A stretch of DNA of 64,000 nt from a phage. How positions within the stretch are numbered: position 1 is the first letter of the stretch; every line of letters begins with the position of its first letter. Below the pieces are notes generated by a model. The model searched no databases. It was not told the DNA's origin and saw only the letters and a list, made by a program, of their open reading frames with translations. Shown in pieces: positions 22,448 through 63,138 of this stretch. The stretch is from sequence record PZ445489.1; one strand, 5' to 3'. The translations under genes and the position numbers were made by a program.

Positions 22448-22506
22448 TATTAACAAGGGGACATACGTCCCCTTTATTAGACCTTCTATGGCTGTAATTT
22501 TAAATT

Positions 22507-25570: not shown

Positions 25571-25611
25571 CTCAAATAGCCCTTTCGGGGGCTATTATAT
25601 TTAAATTTCAT

Positions 25612-25947: not shown

Positions 25948-26423
25948 TGTCGGTTTTCCACATTTATACAGATGGTGCTTGTAAGTCTAACCCAGGTCCA
26001 GGTGCCTGGGGTTTTATTGTCTATGATGATAACGACGATCGTTTAGGTTCTAAATCTGGTTATAATCCTAAAACTACAAATAATGAGATGGAACTCACAG
26101 CTATCGTAGAAGCCCTACGTTGGTCTGTTAAAAAAGATAATAGACCAATTGCTATCTATACTGACTCTGCTTATTGCAAAAATGGTATGGAAAGTTGGAT
26201 GTTTTCTTGGCAAAGGAAAGGCTGGAAGAAAGCAGATGGTGAAGTTCCTCTTAATCTAGAACTTTGGCAGGAAGCATTTAAATTAACACAGCAGTATATC
26301 AACTTTCATAATACTAATCCTACCTTTATTAAGGTTAAAGGACATTCTGGTATTAGTGGTAATGAAGCTGTAGATGCATTGTGTAACACAGTTATTACTG
26401 AGCAAGAACTTGCCGAGATGTGA
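25935..26423 (+). CDS. rnh: ribonuclease H
   Basis: IYTDGACKSNPGPGAWGF classic RNase HI N-terminal motif. Confidence 0.8.
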   Translation: MGGIMSVFHIYTDGACKSNPGPGAWGFIVYDDNDDRLGSKSGYNPKTTNNEMELTAIVEALRWSVKKDNRPIAIYTDSAYCKNGMESWMFSWQRKGWKKADGEVPLNLELWQEAFKLTQQYINFHNTNPTFIKVKGHSGISGNEAVDALCNTVITEQELAEM

Positions 26424-26499
26424 TAAATAAATTAAAAATCTTCTTGCTTAAAGCCCTCTAATTTAGTATAATATTCGTATTGAAAGTGAGGAGGGCTTT

Positions 26500-26778
26500 A
26501 TGCGAATTTATAACTCAAATTCATTAGGATTTAAACCGTTGAGAAAACGTGCACAATCACCTCGTCAAATAAGAAAGGCTAATATTGGTGAGCCAGAGAC
26601 ACGTCTTCCGCCTCCTCCAGAACAACGTTTAGTTTATCTGGACGAAGAGTTAGCTGAACGCGAAAGAAAAGCTCAAGAAGAGATTGAGCGTAAGAAAATG
26701 TGTACTGCTCCAGCGTATAATAAAGGAGCGTATCAATATGTTTCCGACGCAGAACAAGCTAAGATGGTTGGTAGATAA
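26500..26778 (+). CDS. hypothetical protein (92 aa)
   Basis: ORF with RBS. Confidence 0.5.
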   Translation: MRIYNSNSLGFKPLRKRAQSPRQIRKANIGEPETRLPPPPEQRLVYLDEELAERERKAQEEIERKKMCTAPAYNKGAYQYVSDAEQAKMVGR

Positions 26779-26794
26779 TTTTTAAAAAATTCAT

Positions 26795-26823
26795 TTGCTA
26801 AACGCTTCAAATTCTTGTATAAT
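26795..26823 (+). promoter_or_regulatory. early-type promoter
   Basis: TTGCTA-17-TATAAT. Confidence 0.55.
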
Positions 26824-26861
26824 ATACTTCATAAATTGATAAACAAAAAGGAAAACAAATA

Positions 26862-27377
26862 ATGGCTAAGCAGAAAAACGCAAAAACTCAAGCAGCTACT
26901 ACAGTTAAAACTTTCCCGCAGACTGAGGCTAACCGCAAAGCTCGTCTGGAACGCCACCTGCGCAAGCACCCTACTGATGCTCAAGCTGCACAGGCACTGA
27001 ATCGTCCGGCTCCGATTCGTCAAAAGCCGAAGGCTAAGAACGCTACTCGTTCTGTAGCCCGCCTTGTGACCTATGTACAAGGTTATGGTCACAAATCTGT
27101 TCCAGTAACACTGAGTTTCAATGCTGGTGCAGAATTGTTCCCTCGTAATGGCATGGCCATGAAAGATTACGAGAAAGCAGTTAACCAGAAACGCAAACCA
27201 ACGGCAGATGTACTGCGTGATGCTCGTGGACAGTTTGGTTCTGTTAAGCCAAATATCTTCGGTGTAGAGTATAGCAAAGATAACGTTCGTGCTCTGTGTT
27301 ACGGTGTAGGCATTAAGTTCACGGGTGATTCTGCTCGTAAATCTGCTAAACCAGCTCGCAAGCGTAAAGCGAAGTAA
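26862..27377 (+). CDS. hypothetical basic protein (171 aa)
   Basis: ORF with promoter, Lys/Arg-rich. Confidence 0.5.
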   Translation: MAKQKNAKTQAATTVKTFPQTEANRKARLERHLRKHPTDAQAAQALNRPAPIRQKPKAKNATRSVARLVTYVQGYGHKSVPVTLSFNAGAELFPRNGMAMKDYEKAVNQKRKPTADVLRDARGQFGSVKPNIFGVEYSKDNVRALCYGVGIKFTGDSARKSAKPARKRKAK

Positions 27378-27384
27378 TAGATAA

Positions 27385-27404
27385 GTAGGGGCGAAAGCCC
27401 CTAC
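27385..27404 (+). terminator. GNRA-loop hairpin GTAGGGGC-GAAA-GCCCCTAC (terminator or processing site)
   Basis: 8-bp GC stem with GAAA tetraloop immediately after stop codon. Confidence 0.45.
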
Positions 27405-27441
27405 AATCTACTAATTCTCTAACTAATCAAGGATATTTTTT

Positions 27442-27657
27442 ATGTTCTCTAAGAAACCACGTTCTGTTACTGAAATCGTTGCTTCCTTTACCACTATCAC
27501 TGATGAGCTTCAAGCTCGTATTGAGGCTGATCAAAAAATCGCAGCTGATATTCAGAAACAGCAGGAAGAACTCGCTTTAAAGTTGGCTGAAACTAACAAG
27601 AGTGAAAAGTCTGCCCAAACTATTATGGAAAATATCCTTAAACTGCTGGGCAAGTGA
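27442..27657 (+). CDS. hypothetical protein (71 aa)
   Basis: ORF. Confidence 0.45.
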   Translation: MFSKKPRSVTEIVASFTTITDELQARIEADQKIAADIQKQQEELALKLAETNKSEKSAQTIMENILKLLGK

Positions 27658-27665
27658 TTTAAATC

Positions 27666-27684
27666 AGGGGGCGAAAGCCCCTCT
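27666..27684 (+). terminator. GNRA-loop hairpin GGGGGC-GAAA-GCCCCT (near-copy of 27385 hairpin)
   Basis: Same stem-loop sequence class as at 27385. Confidence 0.45.
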
Positions 27685-27698
27685 TATTTGGAGAAACT

Positions 27699-27935
27699 AT
27701 GCGTAATTTTGTAGCAAAGAATGATTTTAACCGTGCTAGCACCCATAAGTCCACTAGAGATTATACACGACTTTCTAGTCATGAGGTAATGGATACCTGT
27801 TATGAAGAGCTGGAAGGTAGCTGGAATGAATGGCCTGACTTTTCTATGGAAGAGAACTGGGATGTCAGTGAGGATATGCTTCCTGGTTTTAAAGACCCCA
27901 AGAAGTGGGAGTCTATTAAAGAGACAGCTCTTTAA
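27699..27935 (+). CDS. hypothetical protein (78 aa)
   Basis: ORF. Confidence 0.45.
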   Translation: MRNFVAKNDFNRASTHKSTRDYTRLSSHEVMDTCYEELEGSWNEWPDFSMEENWDVSEDMLPGFKDPKKWESIKETAL

Positions 27936-27963
27936 TAGTTTTCTACACAATAAAGGATAAGTT

Positions 27964-28665
27964 ATGAAAGTAAAACCATTTGGTATGCTAGATATTGAAT
28001 CTCTAGGAACTCCGGGAGATTGTGGTACTACTCATATTGTAATGCCTTCTTTCGCTTTTGTGGCTATGCATGGGATTGATAAAGACCCTGATCTAGTGTT
28101 TGTTACTTTAGATGTACAAGATCAGCTTAATTCTGGAGCTAAAGTTACGGCATCTACTCTAGCATTCTGGATGGATCAAGCTAAACATAGCCCGTCTGCT
28201 ATCCACATTATGGAAGCTATGAAGGAACGTAATCCAAAACTGATTGCCTTCCAAAATGGTAAACATCATTGCACTAATAAACTCGGCTCTAACTATGCTG
28301 CCTTCTCTATGGCTAAAAACATTATGGAATTGGCTCTAGGCGACAATGCTTTGTACTATGGCAATGGCCCAGAGTTTGATATGACTATCTACTCTGCAAA
28401 TACGTTCCATGCTGGAACCAATGAAGAGGTAGTTCCGTGGAAATTCTGGAATTTGGGCAATGTTCGATCTCTTCGTAATCTCTGGATGCAAGCTGGATAC
28501 AGTTATAAGGCTCTAGAGACCGAAGGTATTAGCTGGGCAATAGCTAAAATGGAGAAGATGGACACTATTCGTTATGGGATCTATCCGGTTAAGCATGATC
28601 CTGCATTTGATGCCTTAGTTGAAAGCTATTGTGTTGCAGCTATGATCGAAAAAATGAAAATTTGA
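27964..28665 (+). CDS. putative DEDD-type 3'-5' exonuclease
   Basis: N-terminal FGMLDIESLG (exo motif I D.E), C-terminal H..AFDA (motif III-like). Confidence 0.45.
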   Translation: MKVKPFGMLDIESLGTPGDCGTTHIVMPSFAFVAMHGIDKDPDLVFVTLDVQDQLNSGAKVTASTLAFWMDQAKHSPSAIHIMEAMKERNPKLIAFQNGKHHCTNKLGSNYAAFSMAKNIMELALGDNALYYGNGPEFDMTIYSANTFHAGTNEEVVPWKFWNLGNVRSLRNLWMQAGYSYKALETEGISWAIAKMEKMDTIRYGIYPVKHDPAFDALVESYCVAAMIEKMKI

Positions 28666-28666
28666 T

Positions 28667-28695
28667 TTGCTTCCGGCCCCAAAATTCTGTATAAT
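28667..28695 (+). promoter_or_regulatory. early-type promoter
   Basis: TTGCTT-17-TATAAT. Confidence 0.55.
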
Positions 28696-28735
28696 ATATT
28701 CATAAATTTGAGAAAACAATAAAAGGAAAACAAAT

Positions 28736-28918
28736 ATGCCAGTATCTAAAAATGTTCGTAAAAATGGTAAGAAAGCTACTCGTAATCTGGGTATCCGTCG
28801 TATGGCTGAACGTCAATCAGGTATCCAGAAAATCTTTGATCTGCTAAATCGTGCTAATCCTAAAATTGATAACAGTAACGATACTGTTCTGCGCACTCTG
28901 CTGGCAATTGGTCTGTAA
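28736..28918 (+). CDS. hypothetical protein (60 aa)
   Basis: ORF with promoter + RBS. Confidence 0.45.
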   Translation: MPVSKNVRKNGKKATRNLGIRRMAERQSGIQKIFDLLNRANPKIDNSNDTVLRTLLAIGL

Positions 28919-60343: not shown

Positions 60344-60963
60344 TGACTTTATATGCACAACAATCTATTCAAGTAGTACCAGAGCATGAACTGAATACAT
60401 GGGATTATAGCTTTAAAGATTTAACTGCTACTGTACAATTCAAATCTATGAAGCTAACCTTTGCACACACTAGTATTAAAGCATGTAAAGATCTTGAAGG
60501 TAAGCTCGAAGATGCTCGCAAGATTTTTGGTACGGCTCGCATCCCGGCGGATAACCTGATTAATGCACTGATCGATGCAGGGTACAAACTTGTGAAGACT
60601 GAGGTGAACCGCCCCAGTACTCCAGTGACTATTAGAGATCCGTGGCAGTCAGGGACAATCTCAATGCTGAATAACTCCGATAAAAGATTAATGTCGGATA
60701 TGCACAATGTTCCTTGTGGGGGTGTGGTAAGTAGTACGAAGTCATATAAGTTTGGGGAAGATTACGGCCCTTCTGTACAGTTGAAACATACCCAAGAAGC
60801 TTTTGAATCTGATATGCGAAGCGTAGCACCTGTGGATGCTGGAGTTTCTAGGAGTTCTGTTTGTACTATTCATTTTAATAATCCTAGTAAACATGGAAGT
60901 CTAGAAGATGCAATTATGGAAGCACTGGGAGCTGTTATTAATGAAGATAAGAGGGGTAATTAA
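60343..60963 (+). CDS. hypothetical protein (206 aa)
   Basis: ORF. Confidence 0.5.
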   Translation: MTLYAQQSIQVVPEHELNTWDYSFKDLTATVQFKSMKLTFAHTSIKACKDLEGKLEDARKIFGTARIPADNLINALIDAGYKLVKTEVNRPSTPVTIRDPWQSGTISMLNNSDKRLMSDMHNVPCGGVVSSTKSYKFGEDYGPSVQLKHTQEAFESDMRSVAPVDAGVSRSSVCTIHFNNPSKHGSLEDAIMEALGAVINEDKRGN

Positions 60964-61694
60964 TGAAAGATTTGGCAGTAAAATTTAAGAATATTCTAGC
61001 CCTCGCTAAGGGGGCTGATCATCGCTGTTTCTCTGATCTAACTGCTCAAGAGAAACATGCAGTAATGTTTGTTTGTGAGATGTTCCCAGCTAGGTGGGAA
61101 GGTGGTAAGATTAAGTATGATAACAAAGCTGCAAAAGCTGACCTTGCTTACTCTTATGTTGATATGAATAAACTTCTCAAGTCTTTAGATCCAACTGCTA
61201 AAGGTCACATGGGAAACTATATTCATGTTATTATTGATGAACCTCTCCCAGCGTATAGAGAAACATCCGCTAGAGAAGCGTTAGAAGCGTATCCTGAGCA
61301 ACTTCTTATCCCACCTAAGAAATGTAAGTTCGATCATCTTCCAGCATTAGCTTTTGAAACTAGCATTACGTTTGAAGATATTTATAGAACGATTGGAGCT
61401 GTAGTAGCACGGATTGCAGTGGCACATCATCGTGATATAGAACTAACTACAGCGGAAGATTACATTCTATATGCTATCCACGATGAAAAGGACTCCTTCA
61501 AACGTTTAATGGATGCGCTAGGATTAGGTAGTCTCACTGCACTTGTGCTTAACCAGGCTCCTAGAACTAAGCGTTATGCAAAAGGATCTATTACTCTTGA
61601 AGAAACAGGATCTACATCTTCATTCCTTGCTACGTATATTTATCTAGCATCTAAAGGAATCTATCTAAAGGCTAGAAAGAATGTCACTATATAA
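60963..61694 (+). CDS. hypothetical protein (243 aa)
   Basis: ORF. Confidence 0.5.
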   Translation: MKDLAVKFKNILALAKGADHRCFSDLTAQEKHAVMFVCEMFPARWEGGKIKYDNKAAKADLAYSYVDMNKLLKSLDPTAKGHMGNYIHVIIDEPLPAYRETSAREALEAYPEQLLIPPKKCKFDHLPALAFETSITFEDIYRTIGAVVARIAVAHHRDIELTTAEDYILYAIHDEKDSFKRLMDALGLGSLTALVLNQAPRTKRYAKGSITLEETGSTSSFLATYIYLASKGIYLKARKNVTI

Positions 61695-62037
61695 AGTATA
61701 TATTCTTGCAAATAGGGATCTGACGAAGATCCCTAAGAGAACAAAGATCGGTATTAGTATGAATCCACATAATAGGATTCAAACACTAAACTTAGATAAG
61801 ATAGTTTATCGTGGTTTTGACGATTTATACGTGTATGGGATCTATGAAACCCATAATCCTAGAGATCTAGAAGCCGCTGCACATATCTACTTTAAGAAAT
61901 ACCGCTGTAATTTAAAGGGATTCGAAGGATGCACAGAGTTCTTTGATATTCACCCACAACTTGCAGAACGATTCCTATTAAATACAGGAGCCAAGAAGAT
62001 TTACGACCCCAATATCAATCTCGAAGGAGATGTATAA
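61681..62037 (+). CDS. hypothetical protein (118 aa)
   Basis: ORF. Confidence 0.5.
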   Translation: MSLYKVYILANRDLTKIPKRTKIGISMNPHNRIQTLNLDKIVYRGFDDLYVYGIYETHNPRDLEAAAHIYFKKYRCNLKGFEGCTEFFDIHPQLAERFLLNTGAKKIYDPNINLEGDV

Positions 62038-62054
62038 ACGTTAACAAAATCTTC

Positions 62055-62084
62055 TTGACAACTCATTGCGGAACATGTTATAAT
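62055..62084 (+). promoter_or_regulatory. strong sigma70-type promoter reading into ORF-free repeat region
   Basis: TTGACA-18-TATAAT. Confidence 0.55.
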
Positions 62085-62359
62085 AATCTCATAGATTAAA
62101 AACAACTCTTGTTTTGAACTCTAGGGGCGATGATTATTACACTTAGTATTACGTCTATACGTTGCGACAGCACGAGTATAGATCTAATTACTAAGTCTTC
62201 CGTAATACTCACGCGCCCCACGAGGAATCTCACATGAAATGGGGGTATATTTACTTTTAAATAACTAAAAATATTTAAAGGCAATATCTGTGTTCAAGAT
62301 GATACACCTGTTGCCGCTCATCTGCTAGGATGGCACAACACTTTCTAGTAGACTCCTAA

Positions 62360-62563
62360 GTTTCTAGGAATAGTTGAGCACTAACTCTAGAGTTTACATT
62401 AAACTTTAAATCTGTTTCTCTAGCCAACTCAGGCGGTTTTCATTGTTCCTAGAAACTCTAGCAATAGGCGGTTATAGGGAGGGCGGTTATTTCTAGAAGA
62501 CATTTTTTGAAAACACATTTCCAGAAATTACTGTCGGATTTGCACACTGCATTTCTAGAAATT
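62360..62563. repeat. cluster of palindromic (A)TTTCTAGAAA-like sites (~5 copies)
   Basis: TTTCTAGGAA 62361, TTCCTAGAAA ~62446, TTTCTAGAA 62489, ATTTCCAGAAAT ~62517, ATTTCTAGAAAT ~62551. Confidence 0.6.
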
Positions 62564-63133
62564 TATGGTCGGATTTGCACAAACGCCTAAGTTTTTAGGG
62601 ACACATAATCTCCTGAAAATAGCAGCATTATTTCGGGCCGAAGGCCCATGATTGCCTGAGTTTTTAGAGCCACAGAAATTTTCACTTGTCAAGCTATTTT
62701 GCCCCGTTTAGCTAATAAAATTTTACTTTTTCTGCACCTATCTCAAATTAACCCAAATTATCTCACATCTTCCCCAAAATCCCCGCAAATCAGGTGCTCC
62801 GCACCAAACATGCGCCCCATCCTTCTAGCCTCCCAAATTTCTCTCACTCTCTCATCTTCTCCTCAAACCCACACAATCACACACCCTCCAATCGAAGTCA
62901 CAAAAATCTTGTCGGATTCGCACAAATAAACCCATGTCGGATTTGCACATATTCTAGCTAATTCCACAGGATTGATGCGCAGCATCGGATTGCTGGAGTT
63001 TTTGGGAAAATTCATTGTCGGATTTGCACACTATAAAAATTTTTCGGGTCGGATTTGCACACTACCAAAAATTGTCGGATTCGCACATACATGCCCGCAC
63101 GTAACACCCGTGGAGCAATGTCGGATTTGCACA
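62533..63133 (+). repeat. 8 direct copies of 14-bp motif GTCGGATT(T/C)GCACA
   Basis: Copies start at 62533, 62568, 62911, 62936, 63017, 63048, 63074, 63120, all in same orientation, variable spacing. Confidence 0.8.
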
Positions 63134-63138
63134 AAAGC

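What the first reader, a model, noticed from the sequence alone, without database searches (positions are those of the whole stretch)
27385..27684. Duplicated GNRA-tetraloop hairpins flanking a small gene
Nearly identical GGGGC-GAAA-GCCCC hairpins follow the stop codons of two consecutive genes (27385-27404 and 27666-27684), without the long T-runs of the other terminators. They may be RNase III or other processing sites, or mRNA stabilisers.
Basis: seen in the sequence. Interest (0 to 1): 0.35.

Follow-up and report, generated by a model that had tools for sequence, protein, structure and literature searches.

The report
Hairpin repeats bracket optional phage gene
Two identical short GC-rich RNA hairpins in a T5-like phage bracket a small optional gene; they look like ordinary leaky end-of-gene hairpins, but as a repeated pair they also let the gene be cut out precisely, which relatives including T5 itself have done several times.

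Summary
GGGGCGAAAGCCCC occurs exactly twice in the 64-kb window, 280 bp apart (0.05 expected by chance). Each copy lies 8-9 nt after a stop codon.

The window is a T5-like phage (Tequintavirus). Both hairpins lie in the early operon driven by the homologue of T5 promoter P-H207: T5.089 homologue, hp1, 71-aa ORF, hp2, T5.088 homologue, exonuclease.

- **Optional gene:** T5, DT57C and seven other relatives lack the 71-aa ORF. They carry one hairpin with hp1's left flank and hp2's right flank, so the repeats bound a 280-bp gain/loss unit.
- **Recurrent events:** gene-less phages are scattered over a tree of the flanking genes.
- **Selection on structure:** the stem is kept through compensatory changes. 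A distant relative has a different stem (GGAGGC-UUCG-GCCUCC) at the same junction.
- **GNRA not required at hp1:** its loop also occurs as AGAA, TTCT and TTTA (TTTC in a single hairpin and in hp2), including exact reverse complements, which indicates loop inversion.
- **Weak terminators:** neither hairpin scores as a canonical terminator, and the downstream genes have no promoter of their own.
- **RNase III:** the stems are too short.
- **Cross-family synteny:** T4-like Pseudotevenvirus phages carry a homologue of the 71-aa gene followed by a hairpin with the same GGGGC/GCCCC stem.

Best reading: a leaky attenuator and 3' stabiliser hairpin that doubles as a recombination substrate. Modest interest.

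The parts
26795..26823 (+). Sigma-70 early promoter (TTGCTA-17-TATAAT), homologue of T5 promoter P-H207. It drives the operon that holds both hairpins.
   Evidence: Promoter scan gives 10/12. It belongs to the ~60-nt early-promoter repeat family (D2/D3). The T5 record annotates 'promoter P-H 207' at the homologous place. PH207 is used as a strong immediate-early T5 promoter (PMC6127294).
26862..27377 (+). 171-aa ORF, homologue of T5.089 (DUF7022, PHROG 4516, function unknown). First cistron of the operon.
27385..27404 (+). hp1: GTAGGGGC-GAAA-GCCCCTAC, 8-bp stem, no U-tract.
   Evidence: The core is 14/14 identical to an Epseptimavirus relative, while its flanks differ at 7/13 and 12/33 positions. 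The outer pairs covary.
27403..27682 (+). 280-bp gain/loss unit: hp1 right flank, ribosome-binding site, 71-aa ORF and hp2. It can equally be phased as 27388-27667. It is absent from T5, DT57C and seven other relatives.
   Evidence: BLAST against T5 shows a 257-nt window-only segment whose two flanking matches overlap by 21 nt in T5.
27442..27657 (+). 71-aa accessory ORF (PHROG 2380, function unknown). The GenBank labels 'tape measure' and 'baseplate' for it are not supported by any family match here.
   Evidence: It is present in 373 T5-like records and, at 43-45% identity, in 34 records whose four listed examples are ~176-178-kb phages (two checked are Pseudotevenvirus).
27667..27682 (+). 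hp2: GGGGGC-GAAA-GCCCCT.
   Evidence: The whole 41-nt intergenic region 27658-27698 is identical in Epseptimavirus L029.
27683..27698 (+). U-rich tail CTTATTT, then the Shine-Dalgarno GGAG (27690-27693) of the next gene. There is no room for a promoter.
27699..27935 (+). 78-aa ORF, homologue of T5.088. It must be transcribed by read-through of hp2.
   Evidence: Its N-terminal VAKxDFNRASTH motif is shared with Miller gene M274.
27964..28665 (+). 233-aa ORF, homologue of T5.087, with a 3'-5' exoribonuclease Rv2179c-like domain. Last cistron before the next early promoter (28653-28714).

Best explanation
The hairpin is an intercistronic RNA stem-loop of the P-H207 early operon.

Ancestral form (as in T5): a GC-rich stem with a stable tetraloop, then a broken U-tract, then the Shine-Dalgarno sequence of the next gene. 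It sits right after the strongly transcribed T5.089 cistron.

Inferred role: it acts as a leaky attenuator and as a barrier to 3'-to-5' exonucleases. The first cistron's mRNA would then accumulate above the downstream cistrons, which are still made by read-through.

In this phage the element is present twice, because a small accessory gene carrying its own ribosome-binding site sits between two copies. hp1 keeps the stem but has lost the U-tract. hp2 keeps the U-tract and the ribosome-binding-site context.

Because the copies form a 15-nt direct repeat 280 bp apart, recombination or replication slippage between them removes the gene precisely and leaves one hairpin. The reverse event, integration of a gene-plus-hairpin circle at a single hairpin, is also possible.

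The palindrome also undergoes loop inversion in the DNA.

What is shown: the structure, selection on it, the operon context and the indel anatomy. What is inferred: the attenuation/stabilisation role and the recombination mechanism.
For: Structure under selection:
- The stem is retained while its flanks diverge. The hp1 core shows 0/14 changes against 19/46 in its flanks.
- Outer pairs switch from A-U/U-A to U-A/A-U in Epseptimavirus.
- On 30 distinct hairpins, 6 of 8 pairs show double-sided changes. The covariation score is 0.209 against 0.118 shuffled (0 of 500 shuffles reach it), and all slid registers score lower.
- The only variant that weakens a core pair gives G.U on the + strand, which would be A.C on the - strand (Lindwurm hp2).

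Same architecture with a different sequence:
- In Enterobacter phage KKP_3711 (T5.089 33% aa identity) the junction reads GGAGGC-UUCG-GCCUCC, then UAUCUUUUGGAG.

Leaky by necessity:
- Only 16 nt separate hp2 from the T5.088 start codon.
- The next member of the early-promoter repeat family is at 28653-28714.
- The T5 record annotates no promoter between T5.089 and T5.087.

Weak as a terminator:
- Discriminant scores are -31 for hp1 and -15 for hp2, against +5 to +19 for the window's clear terminators.
- The T5 annotators marked many rho-independent terminators but not this one.

hp2 with its flanks is constrained:
- It is 41/41 identical to Epseptimavirus L029, while four-fold sites differ by 36-47% in flanking genes and 14% in the 71-aa gene.

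Indel anatomy:
- Single-hairpin phages combine hp1's left flank with hp2's right flank.
- Junctions differ between phages (AGGGGC versus GGGGGC; right flank CTCATATTTT versus CTCTTATTT), and gene-less phages are scattered over the flank tree. This implies several independent events.
- One relative has two ORFs between the hairpins.
Against: - There are no transcript 3'-end, read-through or RNA half-life data for any T5-like phage at this site, so the RNA-level role is inference.
- Klebsiella T5-like phages have no hairpin at all. Their T5.089 and T5.088 homologues overlap at ATAATG, so the element is dispensable in some lineages.
- hp1 lacks any U-tract and so cannot attenuate in the classical way. 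Its retention could instead reflect gene conversion from hp2.
- The complete identity of hp2's unpaired flanks across genera is more than an exonuclease barrier needs. It hints at an additional role, for example in translation of T5.088.
- The tree-based count of independent deletions could be inflated by mosaic recombination among these phages.
Confidence: 0.55

Rival explanations
1. Both hairpins are efficient rho-independent terminators that end the T5.089 transcript and the 71-aa-gene transcript.
For: Two GenBank records carry automatic 'putative transcriptional terminator' features on them (EASG3; BB1 listed). hp2 meets the loose stem-plus-T criteria.
Against: - hp1 has no U-tract.
- Both score below zero on the hairpin/T-tail discriminant, while the window's true-looking terminators score positive.
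- T5.088 and the exonuclease gene have no promoter of their own and start 16 nt after hp2.
- The curated T5 record does not call it a terminator.
Confidence: 0.1
2. The hairpins are RNase III (or other double-strand-specific) processing sites that cut the polycistronic early mRNA.
For: They are intercistronic and lack a terminator tail. Extended folds reach 13-14 bp with internal loops.
Against: - The perfect helices are only 6-8 bp.
- The extensions are A/U and G.U rich and show no covariation.
- The loop and outer-stem sequence vary freely.
- From general knowledge, RNase III substrates such as the T7 early sites have about 20 bp or more.
Confidence: 0.05
3. The sequence matters mainly at the DNA level. 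It would be the recombination or attachment site of a mobile gene cassette (PeSL-like mini-circle excision and integration) with little or no RNA function.
For: - The indel is bounded precisely by the repeat, and events are recurrent.
- Loop inversions show that the palindrome is active as DNA.
- The cassette gene and hp2 are less diverged between genera than the flanks. Four-fold sites differ at 4/29 versus 77/197, Fisher p = 0.007.
- The same gene-plus-hairpin arrangement occurs in T4-like phages.
Against: - A non-homologous hairpin occupies the same junction in KKP_3711, in a phage whose slot holds a different gene.
- Compensatory outer-stem changes and the G.U variant point to an RNA structure.
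- This is the only repeat-bounded indel among about ten small window-versus-T5 insertions. The others have 6-9-nt microhomologies, so there is no genome-wide system.
Confidence: 0.2
4. hp2 is part of a translational control element for the T5.088 gene, acting through ribosome-binding-site occlusion or an RNA-binding protein operator.
For: - The 41-nt intergenic region, including its unpaired flanks, is invariant across genera.
- The predicted extended stem pairs UUUAAAU with AUUUGGA, which overlaps the SD.
- In phage Miller the lowest-energy fold pairs the hairpin's 3' arm with the SD of the T5.088-like gene.
Against: - The lower stem shows no covariation.
- In T5 the left flank is different and the predicted pairing does not reach the SD.
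- The Miller alternative pairing is impossible in T5-like sequences.
Confidence: 0.1

Closest known systems
PeSL (promoter-early stem-loop) cassettes of T4-type phages (Arbiol et al. 2010, PMC2839356; Comeau et al. 2014, PMC4122927)
   Same: - Repeated intergenic G(n)-loop-C(n) stem-loops flank small ORFs of unknown function.
- Recombination between two copies deletes the ORF between them.
- Here the homologous gene sits in the ndd region of T4-like phages, a region where PeSL exchange is described, and is followed by a hairpin with the same stem.
   Different: - A PeSL is defined as a composite of a strong sigma-70 promoter plus the stem-loop, with about 50 copies per genome in hyperplastic regions.
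- Here no promoter is attached. The only match is a poorly conserved 9/12 hexamer pair around hp1.
- There are only two copies per 64 kb.
- Other indels in the window do not use such repeats.
Intrinsic (rho-independent) terminators and attenuators
   Same: GC-rich stem with a stable tetraloop directly after a stop codon. hp2 and the T5 single hairpin have a U-rich tail.
   Different: The U-tract is absent at hp1 and interrupted at hp2, the scores are below threshold, and read-through is obligatory for the downstream cistrons.
Intercistronic stabiliser hairpins: REP elements in malE-malF, and the C(UUCG)G and GNRA hairpins of T4 intercistronic regions (general knowledge, not tested here)
   Same: Position, size, stable tetraloops (GAAA here, UUCG in KKP_3711), and no requirement for a U-tract.
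   Different: No decay data exist here. The element is not a dispersed family in this genome.
Small inversions at hairpin loops and quasipalindrome template-switch mutation, as described for plastid non-coding hairpins and for E. coli quasipalindromes (general knowledge)
   Same: The loop is found as exact reverse-complement pairs (GAAA/TTTC, AGAA/TTCT) between close relatives while the stem is unchanged.
   Different: Here it is seen in a phage end-of-gene hairpin. I found no description of this for phage hairpins in the library searched.
Morons of lambdoid phages
   Same: An accessory gene is inserted between two conserved genes and is followed by a hairpin.
   Different: A moron brings its own promoter. 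This cassette appears to ride on the P-H207 transcript.

Membership tests
Canonical intrinsic terminator | GC-rich hairpin with a short loop | tested here: met
   Stems of 8 bp and 6 bp with 5-6 G-C pairs and tetraloops.
Canonical intrinsic terminator | Run of U immediately 3' of the stem | tested here: not met
   The hp1 tail AAUCUACUAAUU gives nT 0.60. The hp2 tail CUUAUUUGG gives nT 1.74. The window's clear terminators give 3.0-3.6. Discriminant scores are -31 and -15 (formula from memory). hp2 alone passes the loose scan.
Canonical intrinsic terminator | Transcripts end there | not testable with these tools
   No 3'-end mapping data for T5-like phages were found.
PeSL (T4-type promoter-early stem-loop) | G(n)-loop-C(n) stem-loop in an intergenic region | tested here: met
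   GGGGC-N4-GCCCC. The PeSL stem-loop is described as GN-loop-CN (PMC4122927).
PeSL (T4-type promoter-early stem-loop) | Strong sigma-70 promoter forming one motif with the stem-loop | tested here: not met
   Only TAGATA-18-TACAAT (9/12) straddles hp1, and such hits are fewer than in shuffles. The -35 part is not conserved in Epseptimavirus (my reading). The genome's real early promoters are a distinct ~60-nt family that is absent here.
PeSL (T4-type promoter-early stem-loop) | Many copies clustered in hyperplastic regions | tested here: not met
   Two copies in the 64-kb window and one in 69 kb of T5.
PeSL (T4-type promoter-early stem-loop) | Indels between relatives bounded by two copies | tested here: met
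   The 280-bp unit is absent in 9 of the 33 distinct relatives examined (T5 sampled twice), with the junction inside the repeat.
PeSL (T4-type promoter-early stem-loop) | Excised mini-circles | not testable with these tools
   Requires outward PCR or deep sequencing of phage DNA.
RNase III processing site | Roughly two turns of double-stranded RNA | tested here: not met
   6-8 bp perfect stems. At most 13-14 bp with weak extensions that do not covary.
GNRA tetraloop motif (as a functional requirement) | The loop stays G-N-R-A across homologues | tested here: not met
   hp1 loops, counted with GSW6: GAAA in 12 genomes, TTCT 5, AGAA 4, GAGA 2, TTTA 1. hp2 loops: GAAA 21, and GAAG, GTAA and TTTC once each. 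KKP_3711 has UUCG.
Dispersed palindromic element (REP/MITE-like) | Many copies at unrelated loci of the genome | tested here: not met
   Only this locus in the window and in T5. The 14-mer is common across unrelated viral contigs in general (at least 120 hits), so it is a generic stable hairpin.
Known RNA family (Rfam) | Match to a curated covariance model | tested here: not met
   Nothing near the gathering score in 26400-28100.

The most novel reading that the evidence does not exclude
A promoter-less gene-plus-hairpin cassette (the PHROG 2380 gene with a GGGGC-GAAA-GCCCC stem-loop) moves by excision and integration at G(n)-loop-C(n) hairpins. It would move both within T5-like phages (Demerecviridae) and between them and T4-like phages (Straboviridae). 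This would extend PeSL-type modular shuffling beyond the T4 group. In this reading an end-of-gene hairpin serves as a docking site that places incoming genes under a strong resident promoter. Loop inversion of one copy would act as a lock that lowers the deletion rate.
Probability: 0.2. Interest if true: 0.55.

Novelty: new variant of a known kind. Interest (0 to 1): 0.35.

Why it matters
As an RNA element it is ordinary: an end-of-cistron hairpin in a strongly transcribed early operon.

Three things are worth keeping:
- It is a clean natural example of one 15-nt hairpin acting both as an expression signal and as the substrate for recurrent, precise gain or loss of an accessory gene. It occurs in a phage family where this has not been described. 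The same gene-hairpin-gene arrangement is present in T4-like phages.
- Annotators should not take the automatic 'terminator' and 'tape-measure' labels at this locus at face value.
- The loop-inversion polymorphism gives a simple marker for palindrome-driven mutation in phage genomes.

Tried and rejected
- **Rfam scan of 26400-28100** at a permissive threshold: only noise.
- **Is hairpin-bounded shuffling general in this genome?** I aligned the window to T5 6-75 kb and inspected ten window-specific insertions of 143-417 nt. Only the 27403-27659 insertion has a long (15 nt) boundary repeat or boundary hairpins; the others share 6-9 nt. Rejected as a genome-wide system.
- **Promoter attached to hp1 (the PeSL architecture).** The TAGATA-18-TACAAT match is weak and not conserved. 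Rejected.
- **Extended lower stem of hp2 occluding the SD of T5.088.** It is predicted but shows no covariation. Inconclusive.
- **Dispersed element.** GGGGC-N-GCCCC is unique to this locus in the window and in T5. The exact 14-mer is common in unrelated IMG/VR contigs, so sequence identity alone is not evidence of homology.
- **Literature searches** for T5 or T5-like transcript 3'-end maps, and for hairpin-loop inversion at terminators, gave nothing directly usable. Three further paper look-ups failed on term format.
- **T5 single-strand nick sites** (consensus GCGC in the T5 record notes). The hairpin lacks that motif and is not at an annotated nick. Rejected.
- **Minus-strand terminator reading of hp1.** The scan lists it on the - strand. 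All the longest ORFs from about 24.7 to 29.6 kb are on the + strand and match the T5 gene order, and there is no convergent promoter. Considered unlikely.
- **Not run:** the large protein searches and structure prediction, because the cassette protein's function does not decide the question about the hairpins.

Full report
**What the window is.** The region is 96-98% identical to many Tequintavirus (T5-like, Demerecviridae) genomes. The best match is Escherichia phage vB_EcoS_FFH_1.

Relative to the T5 record AY543070 the window runs in reverse orientation. The locus reads as follows:
- early promoter at 26795-26823, homologous to T5 'promoter P-H 207';
- 171-aa ORF at 26862-27377 (T5.089 homologue, DUF7022);
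- hp1;
- 71-aa ORF at 27442-27657;
- hp2;
- 78-aa ORF at 27699-27935 (T5.088 homologue);
- 233-aa exonuclease-like ORF at 27964-28665 (T5.087 homologue);
- next early promoter at 28653-28714.

PH207 is a well-known strong immediate-early T5 promoter (PMC6127294).

**The observation.**
- hp1 is GTAGGGGC-GAAA-GCCCCTAC at 27385-27404. hp2 is GGGGGC-GAAA-GCCCCT at 27667-27682.
- The 14-mer core occurs exactly twice in 64 kb, against 0.05 expected. With any 4-nt loop the stem still occurs only at these two sites.
- The two copies form a 15-nt perfect direct repeat 280 bp apart.
- Both fold well as + strand RNA, with z-scores of -6.7 and -3.4.

One qualification: hp2, unlike hp1, has a broken T-rich tail (CTTATTT).

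**The main new fact: the hairpins bound a gene gain/loss unit.**
- T5 and DT57C have no 71-aa ORF. Their T5.089 and T5.088 genes are separated by about 42 nt holding one hairpin.
- That single hairpin has hp1's left flank (TAATAGATAA...) and hp2's right flank (...CTCATATTTTGGAGAAACTATG).
- BLAST of the window against T5 shows the same thing. A 257-nt window-only segment is flanked by matches that overlap by 21 nt in T5.
- I sampled 34 junctions in all (33 distinct genomes, T5 sampled twice): 32 relatives (5 GenBank regions and 27 IMG/VR loci), the window itself, and GSW6. Of these, 24 genomes have gene plus two hairpins and 9 have one hairpin and no gene. One (L018) has two small ORFs between the hairpins with no hairpin between them.
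- In the phage collection, 373 T5-like records encode the 71-aa protein, out of roughly 440 that carry this locus.

**Recurrent events.**
- On a neighbour-joining tree of the flanking genes, the gene-less phages fall in at least three clades, interleaved with gene-bearing ones.
- Their junctions differ: AGGGGC versus GGGGGC on the left, and CTCATATTTT(T) versus CTCTTATTT on the right.
- Several independent events are thus the simplest reading. Mosaic recombination among these phages could also spread one event.
- Each clade that holds gene-less phages also holds a gene-bearing relative whose two hairpins are identical (GAAA/GAAA). This fits deletion between perfect repeats, but it is only suggestive.

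**Selection on the structure.**
- Between the window and Epseptimavirus L029, the hp1 core is 14/14 identical while its flanks differ at 7/13 and 12/33 positions. In the same comparison the hp2 intergenic region is 41/41 identical.
- Four-fold sites differ by 36-47% in the flanking genes and by 14% in the 71-aa gene.
- The outer stem pairs of hp1 are A-U/U-A in Tequintavirus and U-A/A-U in Epseptimavirus.
- On 30 distinct hairpins, 6 of 8 pairs show double-sided changes, and the covariation score exceeds all 500 shuffles and all slid registers.
- The single variant that weakens a core pair gives G.U on the + strand.
- Enterobacter phage KKP_3711 has a T5.089 homologue only 33% identical. At the same junction it carries GGAGGC-UUCG-GCCUCC, then UAUCUUUUGGAG and the next start codon. 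The architecture is the same and the sequence is different.
- Klebsiella T5-like phages have no hairpin. Their two genes overlap.

**The loop is not conserved as GNRA, and it flips.**
- hp1 loops are GAAA (12 genomes), TTCT (5), AGAA (4), GAGA (2) and TTTA (1).
- hp2 loops are GAAA (21), and GAAG, GTAA and TTTC once each.
- Single hairpins have GAAA (8) or TTTC (1).
- GAAA/TTTC and AGAA/TTCT are exact reverse complements. Two such pairs among eight loop types has P of about 0.003 by chance. Both orientations are scattered over the tree.
- This is the signature of loop inversion at a perfect palindrome, that is, template switching. It shows that the specific loop sequence is not recognised, at least at hp1.

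**Terminator, processing site or stabiliser?**
- Neither hairpin scores as a canonical intrinsic terminator (hp1 -31, hp2 -15). Four obvious terminators in the same window score +5 to +19 (the discriminant formula was recalled from memory, so only the ranking should be trusted).
- T5.088 starts 16 nt after hp2, and no promoter lies between P-H207 and the next early promoter at about 28.65 kb. Substantial read-through is therefore required.
- The T5 annotators marked many rho-independent terminators but not this hairpin. Two other records carry automatic terminator calls on it.
- RNase III is unlikely because the helices are 6-8 bp, and the predicted A/U-rich extensions do not covary.
- I therefore favour a leaky attenuator plus 3'-exonuclease barrier that raises T5.089 mRNA above the downstream cistrons. 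This role is inferred, not shown. No 3'-end data for T5-like phages were found.
- The invariance of hp2's unpaired flanks suggests an added role in T5.088 translation, which I could not substantiate.

**Link to T4-like phages.**
- The 71-aa protein (PHROG 2380) has 43-45% identical homologues in Pseudotevenvirus (Straboviridae), next to ndd.
- In all ten such loci examined, the homologue's stop codon is followed within 5-13 nt by a GGGGC...GCCCC hairpin. The exact 14-mer GGGGCGAAAGCCCC follows it in phage Miller and in L183. The others have GGGGCU-GAAA-AGCCCC or a UAAAAA-loop variant.
- In Miller the next gene (M274, 44 aa) shares the N-terminal VAKxDFNRASTH motif with T5.088 (E = 8.5e-7). Gene-hairpin-gene synteny is thus shared across the two phage families.
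- Such hairpins occur about once per 5-7 kb elsewhere in those T4-like loci, and the 14-mer is common in viral contigs generally. Chance is therefore not excluded, but the combined synteny makes common descent or transfer of the module more likely.
- The stem is of the G(n)-loop-C(n) type described for PeSL elements. PeSLs mediate cassette exchange in T4-type phages, including around ndd (PMC2839356, PMC4122927).
- The present element fails the PeSL definition on two features. It has no attached promoter, and it is not a multi-copy family.

**Is the cassette exchanged between genera?**
- Between Tequintavirus and Epseptimavirus, the 71-aa gene has 4/29 changed four-fold sites, against 77/197 in the three flanking genes (Fisher p = 0.007). 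The adjoining hp2 region has none.
- Either the cassette has been exchanged more recently than its neighbours, or it is under unusual constraint. I cannot separate the two.

**Verdict.**
- The finding is real and the structure is functional.
- As an RNA element it is an ordinary kind of intercistronic hairpin.
- The added value is evolutionary. A duplicated hairpin brackets an optional gene, mediates its recurrent precise loss (or gain), flips its loop, and recurs with the same gene in T4-like phages.
- I class it as a promoter-less variant of stem-loop-mediated modular shuffling, of modest interest.

Noticed in passing
window 27913-27938: A third hairpin (CTATTAAAGAG-ACAG-CTCTTTAATAG, then TTTTCTAC) overlaps the stop codon of the T5.088 homologue. 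It folds at -19.7 kcal/mol with z = -6.1. Phage Lindwurm's record annotates it as a terminator. By my reading, relative L032 has two compensatory pair changes (TT..AA to AC..GT).
   Followed up: partly
L035 (Citrobacter phage Miller) 1148-1190: The lowest-energy fold is not the small hairpin. Instead a 10-bp helix forms between its 3' arm (AAAGCCCCUU) and the Shine-Dalgarno region (GAGGGGCUUU) of the T5.088-like gene M274. An 8-bp equivalent exists in L183. This could be a translational switch, and it is not possible in the T5-like sequences.
   Followed up: partly
window 27699-28665: The T5.088 and T5.087 homologues match consecutive parts (75-147 and 177-363) of one 436-position PHROG 'exonuclease' profile. 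In some phages they may therefore be a single protein. T5.087 has a 3'-5' exoribonuclease Rv2179c-like domain, whereas GenBank records label it 'metallopeptidase'.
   Followed up: no
L018 3297-3557 and L188 1391-1648: A second optional ORF (86 aa, PHROG 28965) occupies the same inter-hairpin slot in one Tequintavirus relative. Its 33%-identical homologue sits in the equivalent slot of Enterobacter phage KKP_3711.
   Followed up: partly
window 26846-26861 and 28721-28736: An exact 16-nt repeat, AAAAGGAAAACAAATA, lies immediately before the ATG of the T5.089 and T5.086 homologues. It is a shared leader and ribosome-binding region behind two early promoters (D18).
   Followed up: no
window 18884-56603 (14-15 copies): A family of ~60-nt early promoters (AAAAAT..TTGCT..17..TATAAT..ATAAATTGA) is repeated through the early region (D1-D3).
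   Followed up: no
window 60685-63138: Seven to ten copies of GTCGGATTTGCACA are spaced irregularly. The stretch aligns to T5 coordinates ~9.3-10.6 kb, where the T5 record annotates the injection stop signal.
   Followed up: no
window 22455-22474 and 25575-25596: Two other perfect GC-containing hairpins lack T-runs: AAGGGGAC-ATAC-GTCCCCTT, and AATAGCCC-TTTCGG-GGGCTATT. The second lies just after the thymidylate synthase stop.
   Followed up: no
window 3121, 10105, 43082, 48867 versus T5: T5 carries extra segments of about 490-590 nt at these points that the window lacks. The first two coincide with the HNH endonuclease genes hegJ and hegI in the T5 record. The window in turn has about ten small insertions that T5 lacks.
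   Followed up: partly
GenBank records of relatives: The 71-aa ORF is variously annotated as 'tail length tape-measure protein', 'baseplate wedge subunit' or 'tail fibers protein', and T5.089 as 'virion structural protein' or 'swarming motility protein'. No Pfam or PHROG match supports any of these labels.
   Followed up: partly
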